Below, one piece after another: positions 38,557-45,835 of a stretch of DNA of 58,432 nucleotides. This stretch comes from a virus (Duplodnaviria; Caudoviricetes), in IMG/VR virus record IMGVR_UViG_3300047476_001256, positions 1 to 58,432 of that record, one strand, 5' to 3'. Position numbers and translations under genes: made by a program. Within the stretch, counting starts at the first letter, position 1; each line of letters begins with the position of its first letter. The notes below the pieces were generated by a model. That model worked only from the letters and a program-made list of their open reading frames with translations, did no database searches and had not been told where the DNA came from.

Positions 38557-38573
38557 TTCGTGCTCCAAATTTG

Positions 38574-38661
38574 CGGAAAGACAGGGATTCGAACCCCAGA
38601 TACGCTCATCACGTATGCCGCTTTTCAAGAGCGGTGCAATCAACCTCTCTGCCATCTTTCC
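38574..38661 (-). tRNA. tRNA-Ser(UGA)
   Basis: cloverleaf, long variable arm, G73. Confidence 0.95.
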
Positions 38662-38668
38662 TAATATA

Positions 38669-38938
38669 CTAATAGATATGTGTTTCTTCGTTTCTGAAGT
38701 CTTTTGTATCTATTTCAAATTTTTCTTGTCTAATTCTAGCTTCTTCTGCTTCTCTAACCATTCTAATCCAAGTAATAGATACATCAACAGGCGCCAATAC
38801 CCATGCCATAACTAACACCATAATTGAGTCTAATTCCGGTGATGTCCCATAATCAACTCCTCTATTTTTGTATTTTTGATTCAGTTGATAGAAACAATAC
38901 ACTATGCAAATAACATAATAAATAACAAACCAATTCAT
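38669..38938 (-). CDS. small membrane protein within tRNA array
   Basis: two hydrophobic segments; own promoter at about 38960-39007. Confidence 0.65.
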   Translation of the reverse strand: MNWFVIYYVICIVYCFYQLNQKYKNRGVDYGTSPELDSIMVLVMAWVLAPVDVSITWIRMVREAEEARIRQEKFEIDTKDFRNEETHIY

Positions 38939-39013
38939 AATTTTAAGTTTTAAGTTTTAATAAATATACGATAATATTTTTATATTACCAATTTTTATAT
39001 TACCAAATAAATG

Positions 39014-39087
39014 TGGGAAAGATAGGACTCGAACCTATGACCTCAAAATTATGAGTTTTTTGCTCTAACCAACTGAGCTACATTCCC
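39014..39087 (-). tRNA. tRNA-Ile2/Met(CAU)
   Basis: cloverleaf, CAT anticodon; GGG acceptor suggests Ile2. Confidence 0.85.
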
Positions 39088-39090
39088 AAT

Positions 39091-39195
39091 AAAGATTATA
39101 TTCATTCCGCCTTTAGTAGTCTATTTACCATTCACTACCACGTTTATCTAGTCAGACTTCTTTGGGTTTGGTATCGTTCCCTTTATATAATCTTT
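39091..39195 (-). ncRNA. unknown small structured RNA
   Basis: 11-bp closing helix AAAGATTATAT/ATATAATCTTT. Confidence 0.45.
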
Positions 39196-39203
39196 AAATA
39201 AGG

Positions 39204-39313
39204 TGCCGGAGGAGAGATTGGTTACTCACACGCAGGCCATTTCGGCTAATACTGCTCCTTTCTAGATTACGGCGCGTCTCAAAGTTGTACACACTTCTTT
39301 CCGCCACTCCGGC
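39204..39313 (-). ncRNA. tRNA-Leu-like RNA with degenerate anticodon arm and T-loop
   Basis: acceptor GCCGGAG/CTCCGGC, A73, Leu-type GCG/CGC D-stem, long variable arm. Confidence 0.65.
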
Positions 39314-39319
39314 ATATTG

Positions 39320-39391
39320 TGGAGAATACCGGATTCGAACCGATGTATCATGCGTGCAAGGCAGGTGCTAAACCAACTCAGCTAATTCCCC
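39320..39391 (-). tRNA. tRNA-Ala(UGC)
   Basis: cloverleaf, G3:U70. Confidence 0.95.
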
Positions 39392-39397
39392 CATTTG

Positions 39398-39483
39398 TGC
39401 CTCAAGCGGGAATCGAACCCGCACCCACATTACTGCGGACGAGATTTTAAGTCTCGCGTGTATACCGATTTCACCATCGAGGC
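39398..39483 (-). tRNA. tRNA-Leu(UAA)
   Basis: cloverleaf, long variable arm. Confidence 0.95.
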
Positions 39484-39491
39484 GGTGATTG

Positions 39492-39563
39492 TAGTCCGGC
39501 GTGGAATCGAACCACGAATAGTTGCTTAGAAGGCGACGGTTATATCCATTTAACTACCAGACC
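39492..39563 (-). tRNA. tRNA-Arg(UCU)
   Basis: cloverleaf. Confidence 0.9.
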
Positions 39564-39566
39564 ATT

Positions 39567-39730
39567 GGTTGTTTCAACTTGCAAGTTTACTCTTAACATC
39601 TCTTTCTCTACAACGACTGAACTTAATCACATTTGTAGTCCGAATGTAGCGTTGGGTAATTACTCCATGCTTCTATGTAACTCTATATACCTTACTTTGT
39701 TACTAAGTGTGTTAAGTGTATGAAACAACT
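39567..39730 (-). ncRNA. unknown structured RNA (about 165 nt)
   Basis: closing helix GTTGTTTCA/TGAAACAAC; inner CTTAACA/TGTTAAG. Confidence 0.5.
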
Positions 39731-39732
39731 TG

Positions 39733-39807
39733 CGGAATTAACGGGATTCGAACCCGTGGTCTCATCCGTGACAGGGATGCATGTTAGGCCAACTACACCA
39801 TAATTCC
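39733..39807 (-). tRNA. tRNA-Asp(GUC)
   Basis: cloverleaf, G73. Confidence 0.95.
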
Positions 39808-39813
39808 AATTTG

Positions 39814-39886
39814 AGCCTAGTGATGGATTCGAACCTCCGACCCTCTCATTACAAATGAGATGCTCTACCAGCTGAGCTAACCAGGC
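39814..39886 (-). tRNA. tRNA-Thr(UGU)
   Basis: cloverleaf. Confidence 0.95.
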
Positions 39887-40013
39887 AATTTAGAAGGTCA
39901 CCGATACCACCTTCAACGGAGAGTTATTTAATGTCATTTTGTCTAATTTATCTTTCGATACATAGTCGCAGGTTTCTCTCTTAACTGACGAACCCGACCC
40001 GGTTTTAAGTTTG

Positions 40014-40085
40014 TAGTCCCGAGGAGAATCGAACTCCCCTCTCGTCCGTGAAAGGGACGCGTCCTAACCGATAGACGACGGGACC
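40014..40085 (-). tRNA. tRNA-Glu(UUC)
   Basis: cloverleaf. Confidence 0.95.
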
Positions 40086-40090
40086 AGAAC

Positions 40091-40189
40091 TAAAGGAAAG
40101 TAGAAGATGGGTGCGTGGACATCTACTTTTATGATTGGCGTTTCTAACCGGTCAGTATTACAATGAATACCCATCCCAATCAACCTTTA
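40091..40189 (-). ncRNA. small RNA with potential kissing-loop pseudoknot
   Basis: TAAAGG/CCTTTA, TGATTGG/CCAATCA, AAAGTAGA/TCTACTTT, loop-loop GATGGGT/ACCCATC. Confidence 0.55.
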
Positions 40190-40195
40190 ATAAAT

Positions 40196-40227
40196 TAAAT
40201 ATACGATAAATAATTTAATCTACCAAA
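40196..40227 (-). promoter_or_regulatory. internal Bacteroidota-type promoter driving distal tRNAs
   Basis: TTTGGTAG...TCGTATATTTA. Confidence 0.7.
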
Positions 40228-40683
40228 TTATAATTTTACTAAGTGGTCTGCTGCATATGTTGCAATAGGCCCCAAAGATTTATACCTAACTTCATATCCC
40301 ATTCCTTCTACCATACCAACTGCTTGTCTAAACACTTCGTTAGATTTATACTTTGGGTCTGGGTTAATGTCAATGTCAATCCATTTCACTTTAGGTATTC
40401 CTGCATTTTTCATTGACTCAGCAACTTCAACTGCATACCATACTTCGTTTAATAGTCTAACTGACCTTGTTGGTTCTCTTTGAGATTTCCACTTATTATA
40501 TAACACATGTGCACCTTTTCCTTTGTGGTATAATGCAACTACAATTGCATATATAGTCTTGTCCGAAAAGTTTTGAGAGTCACATCCAATTAAGATTTCT
40601 ACATCCTTATTTGACTCCATATACTCTTTTACATAATCAAGTAATTCTACTTTCTGACCACTATATAATTTTTTGTATGTCAT
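40228..40683 (-). CDS. RNase H-like YkuK/DUF458 family protein
   Basis: IGCDSQ...RL..EV...IDIN...S......ADH; start adjusted because the longer ORF overlaps tRNA-Leu. Confidence 0.8.
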   Translation of the reverse strand: MTYKKLYSGQKVELLDYVKEYMESNKDVEILIGCDSQNFSDKTIYAIVVALYHKGKGAHVLYNKWKSQREPTRSVRLLNEVWYAVEVAESMKNAGIPKVKWIDIDINPDPKYKSNEVFRQAVGMVEGMGYEVRYKSLGPIATYAADHLVKL

Positions 40684-40703
40684 AACATATGTTTTATTTT
40701 TTG

Positions 40704-40779
40704 TACCCGTAGAAAGACTCGAACTTTCAATTGTACGGCTTCTAAGACCGTTGCGTATGCCTAATTCCGCCATACGGGC
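40704..40779 (-). tRNA. tRNA-Leu(UAG), short variable loop
   Basis: cloverleaf. Confidence 0.9.
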
Positions 40780-40785
40780 ATTTTG

Positions 40786-40874
40786 CGGAAGATGTAAGAT
40801 TCGAACTTACGATACGAATTACTCCGTATAACGATTTAGCAAACCGGCCCTATCAACCACTCAGGCAATCTTCC
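40786..40874 (-). tRNA. tRNA-Ser(GCU)
   Basis: cloverleaf, long variable arm. Confidence 0.9.
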
Positions 40875-40879
40875 TTTTG

Positions 40880-40951
40880 GGTGTAAGAACGGTATCGAAC
40901 CGTCTTCCCTGGCTCCACAAACCAGTGCATCACCTTAATGCTTCAAACACC
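40880..40951 (-). tRNA. tRNA-His(GUG)
   Basis: cloverleaf with G-1:C73. Confidence 0.9.
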
Positions 40952-40957
40952 ATGTTG

Positions 40958-41025
40958 TTGCGGGGCTAGGAGTCGAACCTAGGACACTCGGCTTATGAGA
41001 CCGGTGGGAAACCATTCTCCCCGCA
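40958..41025 (-). tRNA. tRNA-Met(CAU), initiator-like, truncated D-arm
   Basis: TGCGGGG/CCCCGCA acceptor, CAT anticodon, 68 nt. Confidence 0.75.
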
Positions 41026-41033
41026 ATATGTTG

Positions 41034-41104
41034 AGGTCAGTATTGGATTTGAACCAATGTGAAAGCTTTTGCAGAGCTCCTCCTCGCCTCTCGGACAACC
41101 GACC
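41034..41104 (-). tRNA. tRNA-Cys(GCA)
   Basis: cloverleaf, U73. Confidence 0.92.
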
Positions 41105-41111
41105 TTATTTG

Positions 41112-41183
41112 TAGCCCCTAAAGGATTCGAACCCTTACTCTAACATCCGTAGTGTTGTGTGCTATCCGTTACACTAAAGAGCC
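41112..41183 (-). tRNA. tRNA-Arg(ACG)
   Basis: cloverleaf. Confidence 0.92.
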
Positions 41184-41191
41184 ATCATTTG

Positions 41192-41260
41192 CACGCAGTG
41201 AATGAATCGAACACTCTCCTCTGGTTTTGGAGACCAGTTGGCTACCATAGCCTACCACGC
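41192..41260 (-). tRNA. tRNA-Trp(CCA)
   Basis: cloverleaf. Confidence 0.88.
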
Positions 41261-41265
41261 ATTTG

Positions 41266-41338
41266 TAGGAATAACAAGACTCGAACTTGTGACTTCAATC
41301 GTATCAGAATTGCACTCTACCAACTGAGTTATATTCCT
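41266..41338 (-). tRNA. tRNA-Ile(GAU)
   Basis: cloverleaf. Confidence 0.92.
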
Positions 41339-41343
41339 ATGTG

Positions 41344-41415
41344 TTGTCCCTCAGGGATTCGAACCCCAACTATCTGGACCAAAACCAGATGTACTAGCCG
41401 TTATACTAAAGGACA
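41344..41415 (-). tRNA. tRNA-Gln(UUG)
   Basis: cloverleaf. Confidence 0.93.
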
Positions 41416-41420
41416 ATAAT

Positions 41421-41493
41421 CTCAAGCATTCTACTCCCCGCAGTACGGAATTGTATCTTACTTAGCCCATCGTTAGCGGTATGGGTACTTGAG
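41421..41493 (-). ncRNA. unknown tRNA-sized multibranch RNA
   Basis: closing CTCAAGTA/TGCTTGAG; CCCAT/ATGGG and TTCCGT/GCGGGG hairpins. Confidence 0.5.
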
Positions 41494-41496
41494 TTG

Positions 41497-41568
41497 AGCA
41501 GGTGAGAGGAATCGAACCTCCGTCTCAGGCTTGGAAGGCTAGAGTAATAACCATTATACGACACCTGC
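41497..41568 (-). tRNA. tRNA-Gly(UCC)
   Basis: cloverleaf, U73; two mismatches in anticodon stem. Confidence 0.9.
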
Positions 41569-41578
41569 TTATATTTTG

Positions 41579-41654
41579 TCGGAATAGCAGGATTCGAACC
41601 TGCGTGCTCCACATCCCAAATGTGGCGAGATAGACCGGACTCCTCTACATTCCG
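41579..41654 (-). tRNA. tRNA-Pro(UGG)
   Basis: cloverleaf. Confidence 0.93.
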
Positions 41655-41703
41655 TTATTGTACTTCCTATGTGCAGAGTTGTCTAGTACTAACCATTCTC
41701 CAG

Positions 41704-41777
41704 TGACCCCTAATGGACTCGAACCATTGACTCCTATATTAAAAGTATAGTGCTCTAACCAACTGAGCTAAGAGGTC
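41704..41777 (-). tRNA. tRNA-Lys(UUU)
   Basis: cloverleaf. Confidence 0.95.
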
Positions 41778-41816
41778 TGACTTTTGTCACTTTCCATTTT
41801 GTTTCTTTTTGGTTTG

Positions 41817-41889
41817 TGGTAATGAGTGGTATCGAACCACTTCCTAAAGATTTTCAGTCTTTCGCTTCTACCTAGTTAGCTTCATCACC
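41817..41889 (-). tRNA. tRNA-Phe(GAA)
   Basis: cloverleaf. Confidence 0.93.
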
Positions 41890-41895
41890 AAATTG

Positions 41896-41977
41896 TGAGA
41901 GTAAGTGGACTCGAACCACTGAACTCGAATGAGAGCGGATTTACAGTCCGCCGCAATTGCCGCTATGCGATACTCCC
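41896..41977 (-). tRNA. tRNA-Tyr(GUA)
   Basis: cloverleaf, long variable arm. Confidence 0.95.
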
Positions 41978-41985
41978 AATTGTTG

Positions 41986-42060
41986 TAGAAGATATAGGAT
42001 TCGAACCTATGACTTTCTCGGTGTAAACGAGATGCTCTAAACCAACTGAACTAATCTTCT
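41986..42060 (-). tRNA. tRNA-Val(UAC)
   Basis: cloverleaf. Confidence 0.95.
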
Positions 42061-42066
42061 ATGTTG

Positions 42067-42138
42067 CGCTTTCCGAGAATTACGATATCTCGACCCCATC
42101 ATTAACAGTGATGTGCTCTGCCTCTGAGCTAGGAAAGC
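42067..42138 (-). tRNA. tRNA-Asn(GUU), atypical T-loop
   Basis: cloverleaf, G73; T-loop ATCGTAA. Confidence 0.85.
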
Positions 42139-42147
42139 GTATATAAC

Positions 42148-42183
42148 AAAAAAACCCCTAACTTTTTTATCAGTTAGAGGTCT
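42148..42183 (-). terminator. intrinsic terminator (attenuator) immediately upstream of tRNA array
   Basis: CCTCTAACT-GATAAAAA-AGTTAGGGG-TTTTTTT, 9 nt before tRNA-Asn. Confidence 0.85.
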
Positions 42184-42213
42184 TTTAAATATTGTTTATA
42201 AAACTATTACATT

Positions 42214-42333
42214 TTATCCTACATCCGTATCCTCTAACTTATCAATTCTATCTTGTGAATTAAACATACTAATGCCCGCCCACACCTTAAGTGTCGGTTG
42301 ATAACAATTTGTATGTAAGTTAAAGTTTTTCAT
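42214..42333 (-). CDS. putative attenuator leader peptide (39 aa, all 20 amino acids)
   Basis: MKNFNLHTNCYQPTLKVWAGISMFNSQDRIDKLEDTDVG*; codons 32-35 contain AGTTAGAGG, complementary to the terminator 5' arm; TATTTATA motif 21 nt upstream. Confidence 0.75.
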   Translation of the reverse strand: MKNFNLHTNCYQPTLKVWAGISMFNSQDRIDKLEDTDVG

Positions 42334-42385
42334 CGTTAATATATATAATCTTTTTATAAATAATGTTAAAAAAGTAATTTAATTT

Positions 42386-42655
42386 CAAAATACGCCACGT
42401 CAAGTCATGCTCCGGTTATTATCAGCCTCATCAAATTACTTTTGATTAGTACAAACAGGTTTTAACGGGAGGCGATAAACCTTCATAGTGTACTGCTATC
42501 TAAATCGGTAACATATATCGTCTTTATTACATTTTTCACGAAAAATCCTCCCAAAAACGCTCATTACCAATTTTATTTTTTCGTTAATATCTTTTAGGTC
42601 TTTTAAACGATTTGACGGTTGAATAAGAAACCGCCGGAAATGTCGACCACGAAAA
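42386..42655 (-). ncRNA. unknown structured RNA(s)
   Basis: TTTTCGT/ACGAAAA with GGCGGTT/AACCGTC; GGGAGG/CCTCCC with AGTACA/TGTACT and AGGTTT/AAACCT potential pseudoknots. Confidence 0.5.
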
Positions 42656-42666
42656 TCTTCGTATTG

Positions 42667-42762
42667 AGCGGGGCCATAGAATCGAACTACATCCTCTCAC
42701 CTGGATCGGTAAGTGTGCTATCCCGTGGGTAAACCCGCGTGGAACCATTACACCAACTCCGC
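42667..42762 (-). ncRNA. tRNA-Gly-like RNA with D-loop hairpin insertion and 8-nt anticodon loop
   Basis: GCG/CGC acceptor, U73, TTCGATT T-loop, loop CGATCCAG. Confidence 0.65.
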
Positions 42763-42771
42763 TTATAAATG

Positions 42772-43620
42772 GATGAGAATACTCCATTGGGAGAACTAGC
42801 TTTAGAAAGATTATTTGTTTCCTTTCGTTTCCACTACCTTTTGAGTAGTACCAATTCAATGTGGATGATTTAAGACTATCAGTCTTTAAGTTGCCGATTA
42901 CTCTCTCATTACTCCGCTTCTTCAAATCTGCCGACCTGATTAAACCTTGCGAGTCTAGAAGTTTTTCGTAAGAATCACAGACCTCTTGCGGAGGTATCGT
43001 GGCAAGGAACAACTCCCTACTATGTACACACCTTTCATCTGCAACTGGTAAACACTTAAGCTTAATTTTTATTGAATTTTGATAAATGCAAATCAAATTG
43101 AGTTTTAGTTTATAGAATTATTCAGGTAGCGGTTTACCACTAGCTCCCTCATCTTTTGAACGAGAGAATACTAAACTACCCGATGCAGTATCCCTACTGC
43201 GGTTTTTTAAGTCATCTTCAGTTATAGGTTTTGGTAAACTCTATAAGAGGATGGTAACAACACCACTTGTACACTATCTTATCTCGCGTCCTTTCGGATG
43301 GCTTGATGTTAAGATAACTTTCAAACTGAATACCGCAATGATGTAGAGGGATTAAGTCTACACTTCTTACTGATATTCTATGGGTTATTCTTATTGTTGT
43401 TCCCAACTCAGTCGGAGTATCTATACTACCCCAACCATTCCCACTATTCACCTAAAGTGTTACCCTCAACTACTTTAGCGAGAATGATATCCCACTTGCC
43501 TACTCAAGTTATTCTCTCCTTACGGGGAGAGTAACCGCAGATACACCACTTAAGTATATCCACTTTATCCTACTTTCGTAGTTTATTTGACCACCATAGG
43601 CGGCGGTTGTTTACTTTGTG
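42772..43620 (-). ncRNA. GOLLD-like giant structured RNA (about 850 nt)
   Basis: GC-enriched, many GNRA-capped hairpins (GCAA, GAAA, GTAA), long-range CTATGG/CCATAG and GTGTAC/GTACAT pairings; size and tRNA-array context typical of GOLLD; ends approximate. Confidence 0.7.
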
Positions 43621-43652
43621 AGTAGAAACTCACTTTGTAAAGATTTCAATAT

Positions 43653-44108
43653 TTTAAAGAACTTTTCTTTCGGTTTTAATAAATATACGAATAATTTTTT
43701 TTATTGCCAAATATTTTTAAAACTTTTTTTGTAAATTTGATAACGAGTATCTTTCATCACCTATTGTTTCTCATTTACTTATGTAATATACGAAACATTT
43801 TTAACATTACCAAATTTATTTTCAAAAAACTTTTAAGATAATTGGTATCCGGCTTTCTTAAGAGCTTGAGCCCCGCACATAGTCGGTTTTATTACTATTG
43901 GCTTCAACCAATCATCTTAAATGTAAGATACGATAATTTTTTCAAACTACCAAATCTTTTTTATTTTAATAATAATTGAAATGTTATACATTTTACGGGC
44001 GTCTTATTTTTACTTAGTCTACTCTCCCACAATTATTATATTTTTAAAGAACTTATCATTGTTTCCTTTGATATATCAAATATACGACAAATTTTTCAAT
44101 CTACCAAA
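43653..44108 (-). promoter_or_regulatory. four tandem Bacteroidota-type promoters, two followed by boxA
   Basis: TTTGG...TCGTAT(A/C)TT at 43680-43711, 43783-43814, 43923-43954, 44077-44108; AGTTCTTTAAA at 43653-43663 and 44043-44053. Confidence 0.8.
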
Positions 44109-44141
44109 TATTTTTTTAAATCATTAGAAATCAATGAGTTA

Positions 44142-44515
44142 TGGTGGAGATGAGCGGAGTCGAACCGCTGTCTTACTAGAAATCAATAATATCAGCATCT
44201 CACATGTTTATTCAGTTATTCACAACTGACAAATATATAAGTTTTTACATTTCGTTATAATCAATGTTTTGACTCGATTTAGGGTTCAGTCAATTTTCCA
44301 CCTTTATAGCTACTTCTGTTACTAGGCGTATGTAGTCCGGCCCTATTGTTTGAATTAGGCTGCTACAGCGTAATCCATACCTACAAACGCCATTAAATCG
44401 TTGTAAGTCATAGTTGACATTTCGTCATTTATTGTTTTGCAAGTATTTTAAGACATTCTTACTTTGTCTACATGTGATATTACCATTTACATAGCAATCA
44501 ATTCCATACATCCCC
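44142..44515 (-). ncRNA. ssrA: tmRNA
   Basis: 5' GGGGATG, 3' GGTTCGACTCCGCTCATCTCCACCA with G3:U70; tag ORF ending YAVAA*. Confidence 0.95.
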
Positions 44516-44671: not shown

Positions 44672-45184
44672 CTATTTCCAATGGTTATTATCCCTTTCCC
44701 ACCAAAAAGTTATGTCTTGGGTTTGATTGTCATAATACTCACCTACGAAGTCCGACTTAAATGTAGAATGTGTATTTTCGTATAATGCAAGAGTAATCAA
44801 TTTTTTACCAGTTTCTAATCTTTTTTTAGTCCAATCTATGATATATGTGTAATTTCCACCTCTAATTACTGCAGCTTCTACAAATATCAAAGTTTTTCCT
44901 CTGAATAGACTTGAATGTAATCTGAACATTTCATACATTTCATCAACATATCTCCTATTCCAAACTTCATCAGGATATGGAACATCTATACCAAACCCAT
45001 CACAAACCTCACCATTGAAAGATAATTGATGTCTAAGTATTTGTCCTACCATTGCAGAATAATCGGTAGAAACAGTCACTATGCAAGAATTAGACGCATT
45101 AAAACCTACGTCTAACAATTGTTCTCCTAATTTTACTATTAGTTGTAATTCCTCTGTATGTGAAACAAATTTAATTGAACGCAT
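44672..45184 (-). CDS. phosphoribosyltransferase-fold protein (divergent)
   Basis: LIFVEAAVIRGGNY resembles PRPP-binding loop; C-terminal FWWE. Confidence 0.55.
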   Translation of the reverse strand: MRSIKFVSHTEELQLIVKLGEQLLDVGFNASNSCIVTVSTDYSAMVGQILRHQLSFNGEVCDGFGIDVPYPDEVWNRRYVDEMYEMFRLHSSLFRGKTLIFVEAAVIRGGNYTYIIDWTKKRLETGKKLITLALYENTHSTFKSDFVGEYYDNQTQDITFWWERDNNHWK

Positions 45185-45199
45185 ACTATTTGTTTTTTA

Positions 45200-45835
45200 T
45201 TATTTAAACTTCAATCCTGTCAATTTTTCTACATCTACCAAATCTACCTTATTGTTATTTATACCATCTGGATTAGATAAGTCATTTTCAAATAAGAAAG
45301 CCATCCATTCATTTGACTTCTTAGTATAAACAACTTTCCAACATTGTTTAGGAACTGCAACTTGTCCAACTCTTTTAATTTCACCAACATTACCTGCCCA
45401 AATATGAACACTATCTTCTTTAGATGCAATTTCTCTAGTCAAAGTTTCTAACGATTTCCAATCACCTGCATTCAATCTATGTGTTTGTGCAGCCATATTA
45501 CTAAAGTAGAAACATTCATCTTGTACTGCTTGAGTTTGACATTGATTGGATTTTGCTGGCATCAAATGTCCTCTATCATATCCACTATTTACATAATCTT
45601 TAGATAAGTCAGTTTCGGTAGGTAATAAGGGGTCTGGTTTAAAATTATCTTTTCTAGCTAATGGTTTTTCACAAGCAACTTTTGCTTTTGTTTCCCACCA
45701 CTCTACCATTACTGGATATTTTTTTGACTTACTGAAATGTGATGTGTAGTTTGTGTGTTTTAATACTACTACATCTTGTGCAAATAAAGTAACACTAATA
45801 ACCAATAGTGTAACTAATGATAATACTTTTTTCAT
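45200..45835 (-). CDS. secreted DNA/RNA non-specific endonuclease (NucA/EndA family)
   Basis: signal peptide; YDRGHL, SNM..Q...LN...W..LE, VP. Confidence 0.92.
   Translation of the reverse strand: MKKVLSLVTLLVISVTLFAQDVVVLKHTNYTSHFSKSKKYPVMVEWWETKAKVACEKPLARKDNFKPDPLLPTETDLSKDYVNSGYDRGHLMPAKSNQCQTQAVQDECFYFSNMAAQTHRLNAGDWKSLETLTREIASKEDSVHIWAGNVGEIKRVGQVAVPKQCWKVVYTKKSNEWMAFLFENDLSNPDGINNNKVDLVDVEKLTGLKFK

What the first reader, a model, noticed from the sequence alone, without database searches (positions are those of the whole stretch)
42148..42362. Putative pan-tRNA-sensing attenuator: an all-20-amino-acid leader peptide gates the phage tRNA array
Seen: an unannotated minus-strand ORF 42333->42214 encodes MKNFNLHTNCYQPTLKVWAGISMFNSQDRIDKLEDTDVG*, which contains every amino acid. 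17 appear by codon 23, including the rare W, C and H; even with uniform usage about 2.7 would be expected missing from 39 residues. Repeated residues switch synonymous codons (AAA/AAG, TTA/CTT, AGT/TCA, GGC/GGA, GTG/GTA, ACA/ACG) and use GC-rich codons unusual for this genome. 33 nt after the stop is a U7 intrinsic terminator (CCTCTAACT/AGTTAGGGG) ending 9 nt before tRNA-Asn. Leader codons 32-35 (42231-42239, AGTTAGAGG) pair perfectly with the terminator 5' arm, giving a mutually exclusive antiterminator. A TATTTATA motif lies 21 nt upstream of the ATG. Established: this is trp/his-type attenuator geometry, but classical leaders carry runs of one or a few amino acids. Inference: smooth translation masks the antiterminator and transcription stops; a stall at any early codon (tRNA uncharged, or cut by host anticodon nucleases such as PrrC, PARIS or VapC types) frees it and induces the phage tRNAs. 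I do not know a description of such a system.
Basis: partly seen in the sequence, partly recalled or inferred. Interest (0 to 1): 0.95.

Follow-up and report, generated by a model that had tools for sequence, protein, structure and literature searches.

The report
Leader-peptide switch before phage tRNA genes
A short conserved coding stretch in front of a phage's cluster of tRNA genes looks like a translation-sensing on/off switch whose codons mirror the very tRNAs it controls, a form of control I could not find described for tRNA genes.

Summary
The 39-codon ORF (42333-42214, minus strand), its 20/20 amino-acid content, the terminator (42186-42149) and the 9-nt antiterminator match are all there. 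The unit is conserved. In 138 related loci from viral and metagenome contigs, 132 keep an ATG ORF of 22-52 codons; 5 of the other 6 are cut by a contig end. Where enough downstream sequence is held, a terminator follows, with a tRNA gene 5-12 nt behind it (112 of 120). A fixed 14 nt separates segment 2 from the stop codon. Leader content tracks the array: 645 of 657 tRNA types in the first sub-array have their amino acid in the leader, and 502 of 610 anticodons have a cognate codon. Losses of tRNA-Gly/Gln/Pro coincide with loss of Q and P codons. All-20 coverage holds only for long leaders (15 of 20). The proposed promoter is not conserved, and the link to anticodon nucleases is untested. There is no expression or experimental evidence. 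Most likely this is a leader-peptide attenuator of a phage tRNA array, a new variant of a known mechanism.

The parts
43682..43710 (-). Promoter-like motif (TTGGCA-N15-CGTATATT), the last copy upstream of the unit. It is the likely start of the GOLLD-leader-tRNA transcription unit.
   Evidence: The pattern TTGGYA-N13-19-CGTATMTT occurs 9 times in the window, all on the minus strand, against 0.03 expected. There is no copy between 43682 and 40226. Its function as a promoter is inferred.
42770..43183 (-). GOLLD RNA, conserved 3' domain. The variable 5' part probably starts near 43680.
   Evidence: Rfam RF02032, 287.3 bits against a gathering score of 150, model positions 1-416 of 416. RNA-library contigs of 4 runs cover about 42694-43661. 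A paper passage states a conserved 3' region and a variable 5' region.
42665..42762 (-). tRNA-like element directly after GOLLD. No tool calls it a tRNA in the window.
   Evidence: Read from the sequence. At the same position in relative L003, ARAGORN calls a tRNA with an odd anticodon loop and Rfam gives tRNA at 31.6 bits. The same holds after GOLLD in LR756502.
42373..42440 (-). Conserved 68-nt structured RNA element, an 11-bp closing stem around a near-invariant core, directly upstream of the leader. Function unknown.
   Evidence: Its core pattern retrieved 31 viral loci, 103 metagenome loci and 1 genome locus. RNAalifold on 34 of the 61 unique versions predicts 19 pairs, 6 with changes on both sides. 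No Rfam family matches at E up to 1.
42214..42333 (-). Leader ORF, 39 codons plus TAA, holding all 20 amino acids.
   Evidence: Homologous ORFs in 132 of 138 loci, all with an ATG start; stops are TAA in 124 and TAG in 8. Synonymous changes make up 94 of 206 single-base codon changes, against 22% expected. No Pfam or PHROG match.
42317..42325 (-). Segment 1 (CTTTAACTT, codons 3-6), which pairs with segment 2 (anti-antiterminator).
   Evidence: The minimum-energy fold of the window pairs it with segment 2. Duplex energy with its own segment 2 is -9.12, against -7.43 kcal/mol with other loci's, 0 of 10,000 permutations. Paired in 97.3% of cells in 37 mid-length forms and 75.9% in 15 long forms, where the alignment shifts register.
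42231..42240 (-). Segment 2 (AAGTTAGAGG, codons 32-35), the antiterminator strand. It ends 14 nt before the stop codon.
   Evidence: The 2:3 helix is paired in 90.2% of cells with 3 pairs changed on both sides (14 cells), 0 of 500 shuffles, and in 92.7% in the mid forms. The spacing is exactly 14 nt in 55 of 61 unique mid and long units, across at least 8 different tail sequences.
42172..42180 (-). Segment 3 (CCTCTAACT), the 5' arm of the terminator, also the partner of segment 2.
42148..42163 (-). Segment 4 (AGTTAGGGG) and the T7 run, which complete the intrinsic terminator.
   Evidence: Terminator scan, 15 pairs. The hairpin folds at -18.3 kcal/mol. The 3:4 helix is paired in 96.3% and 94.2% of cells.
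40703..42138 (-). First tRNA sub-array (Asn Val Tyr Phe Lys Pro Gly Gln Ile Trp Arg Cys [Met-like, Rfam only] His Ser Leu), the genes gated by the terminator.
   Evidence: ARAGORN and Rfam. It starts 9 nt after the T run. No promoter-like motif lies in between. In 112 of 120 loci the first tRNA starts 5-12 nt after the T run.
38573..40226 (-). Second promoter-like motif (40226-40198), a conserved RNA element, and the second tRNA sub-array (Glu Thr Asp Arg Leu Ala Met Ser).
   Evidence: Its amino acids (A, D, E, T) are the ones found in the leader but not in the first sub-array.

Best explanation
This is a ribosome-mediated (leader-peptide) transcription attenuator. It sits at the end of the GOLLD RNA unit and 9 nt in front of the phage's first block of 16 tRNA genes.

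The transcript carries four segments. Segment 1 (codons 3-6) can pair with segment 2 (codons 32-35). Segment 2 can instead pair with segment 3. Segment 3 with segment 4 plus the U run forms the terminator.
- With no ribosome, or with a ribosome that runs smoothly to the stop codon 14 nt beyond segment 2, helices 1:2 and 3:4 form and transcription ends.
- With a ribosome held up in roughly codons 2-27, segment 1 is covered or kept apart from segment 2. Helix 2:3 forms first, the terminator cannot form, and RNA polymerase reads into the tRNA genes.

Instead of a run of one amino acid, the leader carries about one codon for nearly every tRNA species that the array encodes. Slow decoding of any of them, for whatever reason, would raise expression of the array, and ample tRNA would shut it off.

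Shown by sequence and comparison: the ORF, the four segments and their conservation and covariation, the fixed spacing, and the match between leader and array.

Inferred: that the ORF is translated, that stalling causes read-through, the direction of the response, and the transcription unit.
For: (1) Conservation. 132 of 138 loci that carry the upstream element have an ATG ORF of 22-52 codons. Five of the other six are cut by the contig end; L046 has lost the ORF and almost all of its array.

(2) Coding signal. All 132 start with ATG; stops are TAA in 124 and TAG in 8. In alignment A1, gaps inside the ORF are multiples of three, while gaps after the stop are not. Synonymous changes are 94 of 206, against 22% expected, p = 5e-14.

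(3) Structure.
- The window's minimum-energy fold is 1:2 plus 3:4. Without segment 4 it is 2:3, and ribosome masks switch the fold as expected. The same holds for a short, a mid-length and a long relative.
- Helix 2:3 is paired in 90.2% of cells, with 14 compensatory cells and 0 of 500 shuffles reaching that. In the mid forms it is 92.7%.
- Helix 3:4 is paired in 96.3% and 94.2%, and helix 1:2 in 97.3% of the mid forms.
- Duplex energies with a locus's own partner beat those with other loci's partners for both 1:2 and 2:3, 0 of 10,000 permutations.

(4) Geometry tied to the reading frame. There are exactly 14 nt from segment 2 to the stop in 55 of 61 unique units, despite at least 8 unrelated tail sequences. 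In the 22-26 aa forms, segment 2 overlaps or follows the stop.

(5) No room for a promoter. The first tRNA starts 5-12 nt after the T run in 112 of 120 loci. No promoter-like motif lies between 43682 and 40226.

(6) The leader mirrors the array.
- 645 of 657 first-sub-array tRNA types have their amino acid in the leader. Permuted leaders give 588.6 +- 5.4, 0 of 10,000.
- 502 of 610 anticodons have a cognate codon. Random ORFs give 350 +- 9 and permuted leaders 475.7 +- 4.6. In the window it is 21 of 23.
- Phylogenetically independent pairs go the same way 12.4 times and the opposite way 0.7 times.
- Precise Gly-Gln-Pro tRNA deletions in L041, L049 and L096 go with leaders that lack Q and P.
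- Tyr: leader and array agree in 32 of 37 cases.
- Types with a tRNA in the first sub-array lie in the stall-sensitive part in 206 of 239 cases, against 127 of 188 for the others.

(7) Codon choice. 76.1% of codons in discriminating families can be read by the locus's own array, against 60.6% expected. CCG makes up 81% of Pro codons, against 7% genome-wide.

(8) Long leaders. 15 of 20 unique long leaders are 20/20 despite different tails. So is the out-of-sample L142.
Against: There is no expression, ribosome-occupancy or read-through data.

Classical leaders use tandem regulatory codons (established knowledge of trp, his, leu and thr). A single codon per amino acid should give a weak response to loss of one tRNA.

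The geometry does not fit every codon. In this leader D, E and R lie in the last 12 codons, where a stall would cover segment 2 and favour termination. Only 514 of 597 sub-array types lie in the inferred sensing window, against 587 in the whole leader.

The match between leader and array is one-sided and imperfect. Leaders often carry K, V, A or F without a tRNA in the array, and short leaders lack E although their arrays have tRNA-Glu. L003 and L104 have tRNA-Tyr without a Y codon; L037, L109 and L087 show the reverse.

The independent-pair test is small: no single amino acid reaches significance, and pairs for different amino acids may share branches. The permutation tests ignore relatedness.

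The 2:3 duplex (mean -12.6 kcal/mol, before the cost of a roughly 50-nt loop) is weaker than the terminator hairpins (about -13 to -22).

Codon-position bias is weak: 132, 149 and 164 changes at positions 1, 2 and 3. Part of the peptide conservation (L-H-T, S-M) is explained by RNA pairing.

The host is unknown, so the rules for translation initiation are assumed.
Confidence: 0.7

Rival explanations
1. It is a leader-peptide attenuator, but one that senses overall translation capacity (ribosome supply or general elongation rate) rather than individual tRNAs. The varied codon content only makes the leader an average sample of codons.
For: The four-segment design and the fixed stop spacing are as in the main reading. 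There are no runs of any codon, so the response to a single tRNA should be weak. Some sub-array types sit outside the inferred sensing window, 83 of 597. Leaders carry amino acids with no tRNA in the array.
Against: An average sampler need not follow the gain and loss of particular tRNA genes, yet leaders do. Independent pairs go the same way 12.4 times and the opposite way 0.7 times. The Q and P codons are lost together with tRNA-Gln and tRNA-Pro. 645 of 657 types are present, against 588.6 for permuted leaders. Rare residues (C, H, W) and rare codons (CCG at 81% against 7%) are kept.
Confidence: 0.15
2. The ORF encodes a small protein with a function of its own. The hairpin is simply the terminator of the GOLLD and small-gene unit, and the tRNAs are made by leaky read-through or from an unrecognised promoter.
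For: There is purifying selection on the peptide: synonymous changes are 46% against 22% expected. The motifs H-T, W-x-G and the LEDTDVG tail are conserved. In the megaphage LR756502, GOLLD is followed by a tRNA-like element and a plain terminator.
Against: This reading does not explain several results:
- the conserved and covarying 1:2 and 2:3 pairings;
- the fixed 14-nt spacing from segment 2 to the stop across unrelated tails;
- the match of leader codons to the array's anticodons;
- the loss of the ORF together with the array in L046.
The peptide has no Pfam or PHROG family. Its tails are replaceable and its length runs from 22 to 52 aa.
Confidence: 0.05
3. It is a nascent-peptide arrest switch of the TnaC or SecM kind. 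The conserved residues (H7, T8, C10, W18, G20) would stall the ribosome in response to a small molecule or a factor, and that stall sets termination.
For: H-T, W and G are conserved at fixed places in nearly all of the 63 unique peptides. A resemblance to TnaC (a conserved Trp some codons before the stop in the short forms) is recalled from memory, not tested.
Against: The CAT-ACA (H-T) codons pair with the GTATG(T) codons downstream in the folds, so RNA constraints explain part of the conservation. The UGGGG of the W-G codons can itself pair with the terminator arm in the short forms. C moves between positions 10, 11 and 17. This reading does not explain the link between leader and array.
Confidence: 0.05
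4. It is an RNA-only switch. The conserved 68-nt element upstream binds a ligand, a protein or a tRNA and sets the fold downstream. The ORF is not translated.
For: The 68-nt element is highly conserved, has a covarying closing stem and always sits directly upstream. Its function is unknown.
Against: The ORF shows coding features: ATG in 132 of 132, in-frame gaps, an excess of synonymous changes, and a stop codon at a fixed distance from segment 2. I found no pairing between the element and segments 1-4, though I made no systematic search for one. The spacer between the element and the ATG varies from 17 to 84 nt.
Confidence: 0.05

Closest known systems
Leader-peptide attenuators of amino-acid biosynthesis operons (trp, his, leu, thr, pheA of enterobacteria)
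   Same: A short translated leader, four segments with alternative 1:2, 2:3 and 3:4 pairings, and an intrinsic terminator just before the regulated genes. Ribosome position would decide the fold.
   Different: There is no run of one regulatory amino acid. Instead there is about one codon for nearly every tRNA species downstream. The regulated genes are tRNAs, not enzymes. In the long forms segment 2 lies inside the ORF, 14 nt before the stop. The unit belongs to a phage and follows a GOLLD RNA. The design of the classical systems is recalled from established knowledge. I saw only the opening of one paper's abstract (PMC1183508, listing).
Multivalent attenuation of ilvGMEDA and ilvBN (Leu, Val and Ile codons in one leader)
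   Same: One leader senses more than one amino acid.
   Different: Those leaders sense three related amino acids with several codons each. Here 13 to 20 kinds occur, mostly once or twice. This comparison is recalled, not tested here.
pheST attenuator (an aminoacyl-tRNA synthetase operon under leader-peptide control)
   Same: Leader-peptide attenuation is applied to a gene of the translation apparatus rather than to a biosynthetic gene.
   Different: It uses one amino acid (Phe) and regulates a protein-coding target. This comparison is recalled, not tested here.
T-box riboswitches
   Same: The state of tRNAs is sensed and decides between a terminator and an antiterminator.
   Different: A T-box binds one uncharged tRNA directly, without translation. 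No T-box or other Rfam family matches here, and the element here carries an ORF with coding signatures.
GOLLD RNA loci next to tRNA islands
   Same: GOLLD lies beside tRNA genes in a phage, as reported (passages of 10.1101/2024.12.08.627333).
   Different: The passages I read mention no leader ORF or attenuator between GOLLD and the tRNAs. In LR756502, GOLLD is followed only by a tRNA-like element and a terminator.

Membership tests
Ribosome-mediated (leader-peptide) transcription attenuator | A short ORF with a start codon lies in the transcribed leader | tested here: met
   An ATG ORF of 22-52 codons is present in 132 of 138 loci. Coding signatures appear. Translation itself is not shown.
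Ribosome-mediated (leader-peptide) transcription attenuator | An intrinsic terminator lies directly upstream of the regulated genes | tested here: met
   The hairpin with a T run is at 42186-42149. The first tRNA starts 5-12 nt after the T run in 112 of 120 loci.
Ribosome-mediated (leader-peptide) transcription attenuator | An antiterminator helix (2:3) excludes the terminator | tested here: met
   The helix is paired in 90.2% and 92.7% of cells, with changes on both sides in 3 and 2 pairs. Slid controls give 23-58%.
Ribosome-mediated (leader-peptide) transcription attenuator | An anti-antiterminator helix (1:2) has segment 1 inside the ORF | tested here: met
   It appears in the minimum-energy folds. 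It is paired in 97.3% of cells in 37 mid-length forms. Own-partner energy is -9.12 against -7.43 kcal/mol with other loci's partners. In the long-form alignment it is only 75.9%, because of a register shift.
Ribosome-mediated (leader-peptide) transcription attenuator | Several, usually tandem, regulatory codons for the amino acid that is sensed | tested here: not met
   No runs occur; most amino acids occur once or twice. This is the respect in which the unit departs from the classical family.
Ribosome-mediated (leader-peptide) transcription attenuator | The leader codons correspond to the function of the regulated genes | tested here: met
   645 of 657 tRNA types and 502 of 610 anticodons are represented in the locus's own leader, above all controls.
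Ribosome-mediated (leader-peptide) transcription attenuator | Read-through depends on ribosome stalling | not testable with these tools
   This needs reporters, in vitro transcription-translation, Term-seq or Ribo-seq.
GOLLD RNA (Rfam RF02032), upstream neighbour | The covariance-model score is above the curated threshold over the whole model | tested here: met
   287.3 bits against 150, model positions 1-416 of 416. Relatives score 267-298 bits.
T-box riboswitch | A specifier loop and the T-box sequence, detectable with the Rfam model | tested here: not met
   There is no match at the gathering score or at E up to 1 in 42100-44200.

The most novel reading that the evidence does not exclude
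The leader is a codon-by-codon mirror of the phage's own tRNA repertoire, a translational self-test. It makes the whole first tRNA block inducible whenever any one of those tRNAs runs short, whether through starvation, codon demand late in infection, or host defences that cut tRNAs. It co-evolves with the gain and loss of tRNA genes. Because it ends the GOLLD transcription unit, it would also tie the still unexplained GOLLD RNA to control of tRNA supply.
Probability: 0.45. Interest if true: 0.95.

Novelty: new variant of a known kind. Interest (0 to 1): 0.87.

Why it matters
Why phages carry large tRNA arrays, and how those arrays are controlled, are open questions. Current ideas, seen in the search listing, are codon compensation and escape from host nucleases that target tRNAs.

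A leader peptide whose codons sample the array's own tRNAs would be a simple feedback device for tRNA supply. I did not find such a device described. Searches listed no paper on a leader peptide or attenuator in front of tRNA genes or next to GOLLD.

It gives a directly testable cis-element: about 190 nt, with clear mutations to make. It offers a comparative signature, anticodon coverage by an upstream ORF, that can be searched for in other phages. It also gives a first functional neighbour for GOLLD RNA, whose role is unknown. The family is common in freshwater metagenomes, with 138 loci found using one 22-base pattern.

Tried and rejected
Related loci and public databases
- The phage record collection holds no close relative. 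The only hit is one distant GOLLD match in LR756502. There GOLLD is followed by a tRNA-like element and a plain terminator, with no leader and no array.
- The genome-contig scan gave one contig of a metagenome bin, which says nothing about the host.

RNA data
- All 24 runs listed held only 9-15% of the sampled words and are kept as contigs.
- I laid four of them. They cover GOLLD (about 42694-43661) heavily, but leave the leader (42210-42330) at depths of 0, 0, 0 and 1.8. Contigs cannot show starts, ends or levels, so I draw nothing from this about the leader.
- One contig of X9 (depth 33.9) joins 42767 to 42671 and 42602 to 42442. So in a relative it runs from the GOLLD 3' end to the start of the 68-nt element. 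That does not prove a single transcript.

Ideas rejected
- The TATTTATA promoter: it is not conserved.
- A hammerhead ribozyme in the 68-nt element: the GATGAG letters vary and covary as part of the closing stem, and Rfam finds nothing.
- A second leader ORF before tRNA-Glu (40183-40064): relatives keep an RNA element there but no ORF.
- The terminator as a chance hit: the simple scan finds 4 sites against 4.1 expected, so the scan alone proves nothing. Conservation does.

Weak or negative results
- The column-wise count for helix 1:2 in the long forms is only 75.9%, because codon-anchored alignment shifts the register.
- Independent-pair tests for single amino acids do not reach significance.

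Rows dropped and data treatment
- L071 was left out of all counts, because my ORF finder took an upstream in-frame ATG.
- L001 is a copy of the window and L002 has no element.
- Loci whose contig ends before the terminator (L042, L050, L081, L097, L137) are missing from the structure counts.
- The array tests used only loci with at least 600 nt after the last tRNA (37 or 38 combinations), or sub-arrays of at least 3 tRNAs (68 combinations).
- ARAGORN calls of Ser(act) were read as gct.

Closed sources
- Supplements of papers were not opened. They may hold GOLLD locus annotations that bear on whether this has been described before.
Full report
What is there

The window is a 58,432-base fragment of a virus record, with estimated completeness 24 and about 30% G+C. 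On the minus strand, ARAGORN finds 23 tRNA genes (42138 down to 38573) and a tmRNA (44515-44142). Rfam adds a 24th tRNA (41025-40958).

The reported ORF (42333-42214), its peptide, the terminator (42186-42149), the T7 run ending 9 nt before tRNA-Asn, and the 9-nt complement of the terminator's 5' arm inside codons 32-35 are all exactly as described. With the composition of the window's 38 long ORFs, 20 of 20 amino acids in 39 residues has P = 0.0033. None of 50,000 natural 39-residue windows reached 20. That would not survive multiple testing on its own.

Relatives

A neighbouring protein (44672-45184) led to four loci. Three of them have the same order: tmRNA, GOLLD, tRNAs. All three have a homologous small ORF in front of a terminator and the first tRNA. 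Directly upstream of that ORF lies a highly conserved element of about 70 nt.

The 22-base core pattern of that element retrieved 31 viral loci, 103 metagenome loci and one genome-bin contig. Of 138 loci, 132 have an ATG ORF of 22-52 codons behind the element. Five of the other six are cut by the contig end. One (L046) has the element and a terminator but no ORF, and has lost nearly all of the array.

There are 82 unique ORF-terminator units and 63 unique peptides. L071 was dropped afterwards, because my ORF finder took an upstream ATG. A scan with a pattern from the leader tail found one further locus (L142). It has a variant element and a 52-aa leader that again holds all 20 amino acids.

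Is it coding?

- All 132 ORFs start with ATG and end with TAA (124) or TAG (8).
- In the alignment of long forms, gaps inside the ORF are multiples of three, while gaps after the stop are not.
- Along minimum spanning trees of same-length ORFs, 94 of 206 single-base codon changes are synonymous, against 22% expected (p = 5e-14). That corresponds to a dN/dS near 0.3.
- The excess at third positions is weak (132, 149 and 164 changes). Part of the conservation is RNA-level.
- The peptide has no Pfam or PHROG family.

Structure

Folding the window from the ATG to the T run gives segment 1 (codons 3-6) paired with segment 2 (codons 32-35), together with the terminator 3:4. Leaving out segment 4, as in the nascent RNA, gives the antiterminator 2:3. 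Masking 28-30 nt around a ribosome at early codons keeps 2:3. A short, a mid-length and a long relative behave alike. In the short form, the untranslated leader holds segment 2 in a long 1:2 hairpin even before segment 4 exists.

Pair counts:
- In 15 long forms, 2:3 is paired in 90.2% of cells. Three pairs are changed on both sides (14 cells). 0 of 500 shuffles reach this, and slid controls give 23-56%.
- In the same forms, 3:4 is 96.3% paired and 1:2 is 75.9%. The 1:2 figure is lowered by a one-base register shift in the alignment.
- In 37 mid-length forms, 1:2 is 97.3%, 3:4 is 94.2% and 2:3 is 92.7%. There is little variation in this class.

Duplex energies of a locus's own segments beat those with segments from other loci. 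For 1:2 the means are -9.12 against -7.43 kcal/mol, and for 2:3 they are -12.55 against -10.46, with 0 of 10,000 permutations in each case. Visible covariation links all three strands. TTGAC, GTCAG and CTGAC occur in some lineages; TTAAC, GTTAG and CTAAC occur in others.

The telling detail is geometry. In 55 of 61 unique mid and long units, exactly 14 nt separate the last pair of segment 2 from the stop codon. This holds although the intervening codons differ (DTDVG, DVILG, EASGW, DDTKG, GYSKVV, DINKG and others). In the 22-26 aa forms, segment 2 overlaps or follows the stop. A stop codon has meaning only for a ribosome.

The transcription unit

A promoter-like motif (TTGGYA, 15 nt, CGTATMTT) occurs nine times, always on the minus strand, against 0.03 expected. 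Copies lie before the tmRNA, before GOLLD (43710-43682) and before the second tRNA block (40226-40198). None lies between 43682 and 40226. No other terminator-like site lies between GOLLD and the leader on that strand.

The first tRNA starts 5-12 nt after the T run in 112 of 120 loci. So the first 16 tRNA genes most likely depend on read-through of this terminator, within a unit that begins with GOLLD. This is inferred, not shown.

The leader mirrors the array

Long leaders go with arrays that begin Asn-Val-Tyr-Phe-Lys. Short leaders lack F, V and E codons, and their arrays lack tRNA-Val, Phe and Lys.

- Over 37 leader-array combinations with complete arrays, presence in the leader and presence in the array agree in 553 of 703 cells. 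Permutations give 505 +- 7 overall and 529 +- 5 within length classes, with 0 of 10,000 reaching the observed value.
- For the first sub-array (gaps of at most 150 nt; 68 combinations), 645 of 657 tRNA types have their amino acid in the leader, against 588.6 +- 5.4 for permuted leaders.
- The amino acids found only in the leader are mostly A, D, E and T, whose tRNAs sit in the second sub-array.
- At the codon level, 502 of 610 anticodons have a standard-wobble cognate codon in their own leader. Random ORFs give 350 +- 9 and permuted leaders 475.7 +- 4.6. In the window it is 21 of 23; Arg-ACG and Leu-TAG are missing.
- Precise deletions of tRNA-Gly, Gln and Pro in L041, L049 and L096 coincide with leaders that have lost Q and P.
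- Tyr codons and tRNA-Tyr agree in 32 of 37 cases.
- A test on phylogenetically independent pairs, pooled over 13 variable amino acids, gives 12.4 pairs the same way, 0.7 opposite and 17.9 without difference (sign test p = 0.003). It is not significant for any single amino acid, and pairs may share branches.
- Types with a tRNA in the first sub-array lie in the part of the leader where a stall would free segment 2 in 206 of 239 cases, against 127 of 188 for other types.
- Leader codons favour those read by the array: 76.1% against 60.6% expected. CCG is 81% of Pro codons against 7% genome-wide, and GTT is 1% of Val codons against 40%.
- Of the 20 unique leaders of 38 aa or more, 15 hold all 20 amino acids and 5 hold 19, with several unrelated tails.

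What speaks against the model

- The leader has single codons, not runs, so the gain per tRNA should be low.
- D, E and R of this leader lie in the tail, where a stall should favour termination.
- Leaders often hold K, V, A or F without a matching tRNA. Short leaders lack E although their arrays have tRNA-Glu.
- There are counter-examples for Tyr.
- The antiterminator is weaker than the terminator.
- All statistics rest on related sequences.
- No RNA or ribosome data bear on the leader. Metatranscriptome contigs cover GOLLD but not the leader, and nothing follows from that.
- The host is unknown.

Comparison with what is known

In how it works, this is the trp/his type of attenuation. It meets every structural criterion I could test. 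It fails the criterion of tandem regulatory codons. That failure, together with tRNA genes as the target, is the novelty.

It is not a T-box. In the passages I read of the GOLLD cryo-EM preprint, GOLLD is said to lie near tRNA islands, with no mention of a leader ORF. Seven full-text searches listed no description of a leader peptide or attenuator before tRNA genes or beside GOLLD. I saw search listings only, apart from those passages of one preprint, and supplements were closed.

Verdict

- There is a fourth segment.
- The unit lies in a GOLLD context.
- There is no local promoter.
- All-20 coverage holds only in the long forms.
- The trigger is unknown.

My odds are 0.7 for a leader-peptide attenuator that samples the array's tRNAs, and 0.15 for a general translation-rate sensor. 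I rate it a new variant of a known kind, of high interest, and directly testable.

Noticed in passing
window 42770-43183 (-), probably up to about 43680: A GOLLD RNA (Rfam, 287 bits) lies between the phage tmRNA and the leader. RNA-library contigs of four runs from four studies cover about 42694-43661 at high depth.
   Followed up: partly
window 42373-42440 (-): A conserved 68-nt structured RNA element lies directly upstream of the leader in all loci. It has an 11-bp closing stem with compensatory changes around a near-invariant core, and no Rfam match. L142 carries a variant core with a possible compensatory change (GAG/CTT to GTG/CAC). Its function is unknown.
   Followed up: partly
window 42665-42762 (-): A tRNA-like element directly follows GOLLD. 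Neither ARAGORN nor Rfam calls it here. The equivalents in L003 and in LR756502 are called as tRNAs with an abnormal anticodon loop. It may mark a processing site.
   Followed up: partly
window 42447-42600 (-): An extra module is present in only some relatives. It is bracketed by GGGAGG and CCTCCC. One RNA-library contig (X2, depth 245) matches 42493-42645 without a difference.
   Followed up: no
window 44584, 44107, 43953, 43813, 43710, 40226, 38991, 38240, 32760 (-): A repeated promoter-like motif (TTGGYA, 15 nt, CGTATMTT) occurs 9 times on one strand, against 0.03 expected. Three copies between the tmRNA and GOLLD each precede only about 100-150 nt with no called gene. Relatives have a tRNA-Met in that interval.
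   Followed up: partly
window 40090-40195 (-): A conserved RNA element lies between the second promoter-like motif and tRNA-Glu: GGTTGATTGG, a variable insert, CCAATCATAAAAGTA, then a conserved C-rich stretch. It is found in many relatives. The ORF listed there (40183-40064) is not conserved.
   Followed up: partly
window 40958-41025 and 41416-41495 (-): Rfam finds a weak tRNA (33.4 bits) that ARAGORN misses. It stands where relatives have a tRNA with a CAT anticodon. An 80-nt gap between tRNA-Gly and tRNA-Gln, with no call by either tool, recurs in relatives.
   Followed up: no
window 40231-40683 (-): A 151-aa protein of the RNaseH_like family (PF04308, E = 9e-21) is encoded at the end of the first tRNA block. 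A secreted-type DNA/RNA non-specific endonuclease (PF01223) is encoded at 45203-45835.
   Followed up: partly
L046 (whole locus): This is a natural deletion variant. The 68-nt element is followed at once by the terminator, with no leader ORF. Only one tRNA-like gene comes before the next promoter-like motif.
   Followed up: partly
L003 16150-16500: A Cys-rich ORF with His-containing motifs that looks like a homing (HNH-type) endonuclease gene is inserted between tRNA-Tyr and tRNA-Asn. This locus is one of the exceptions to the Tyr rule. The family name comes from reading the sequence, not from a search.
   Followed up: no
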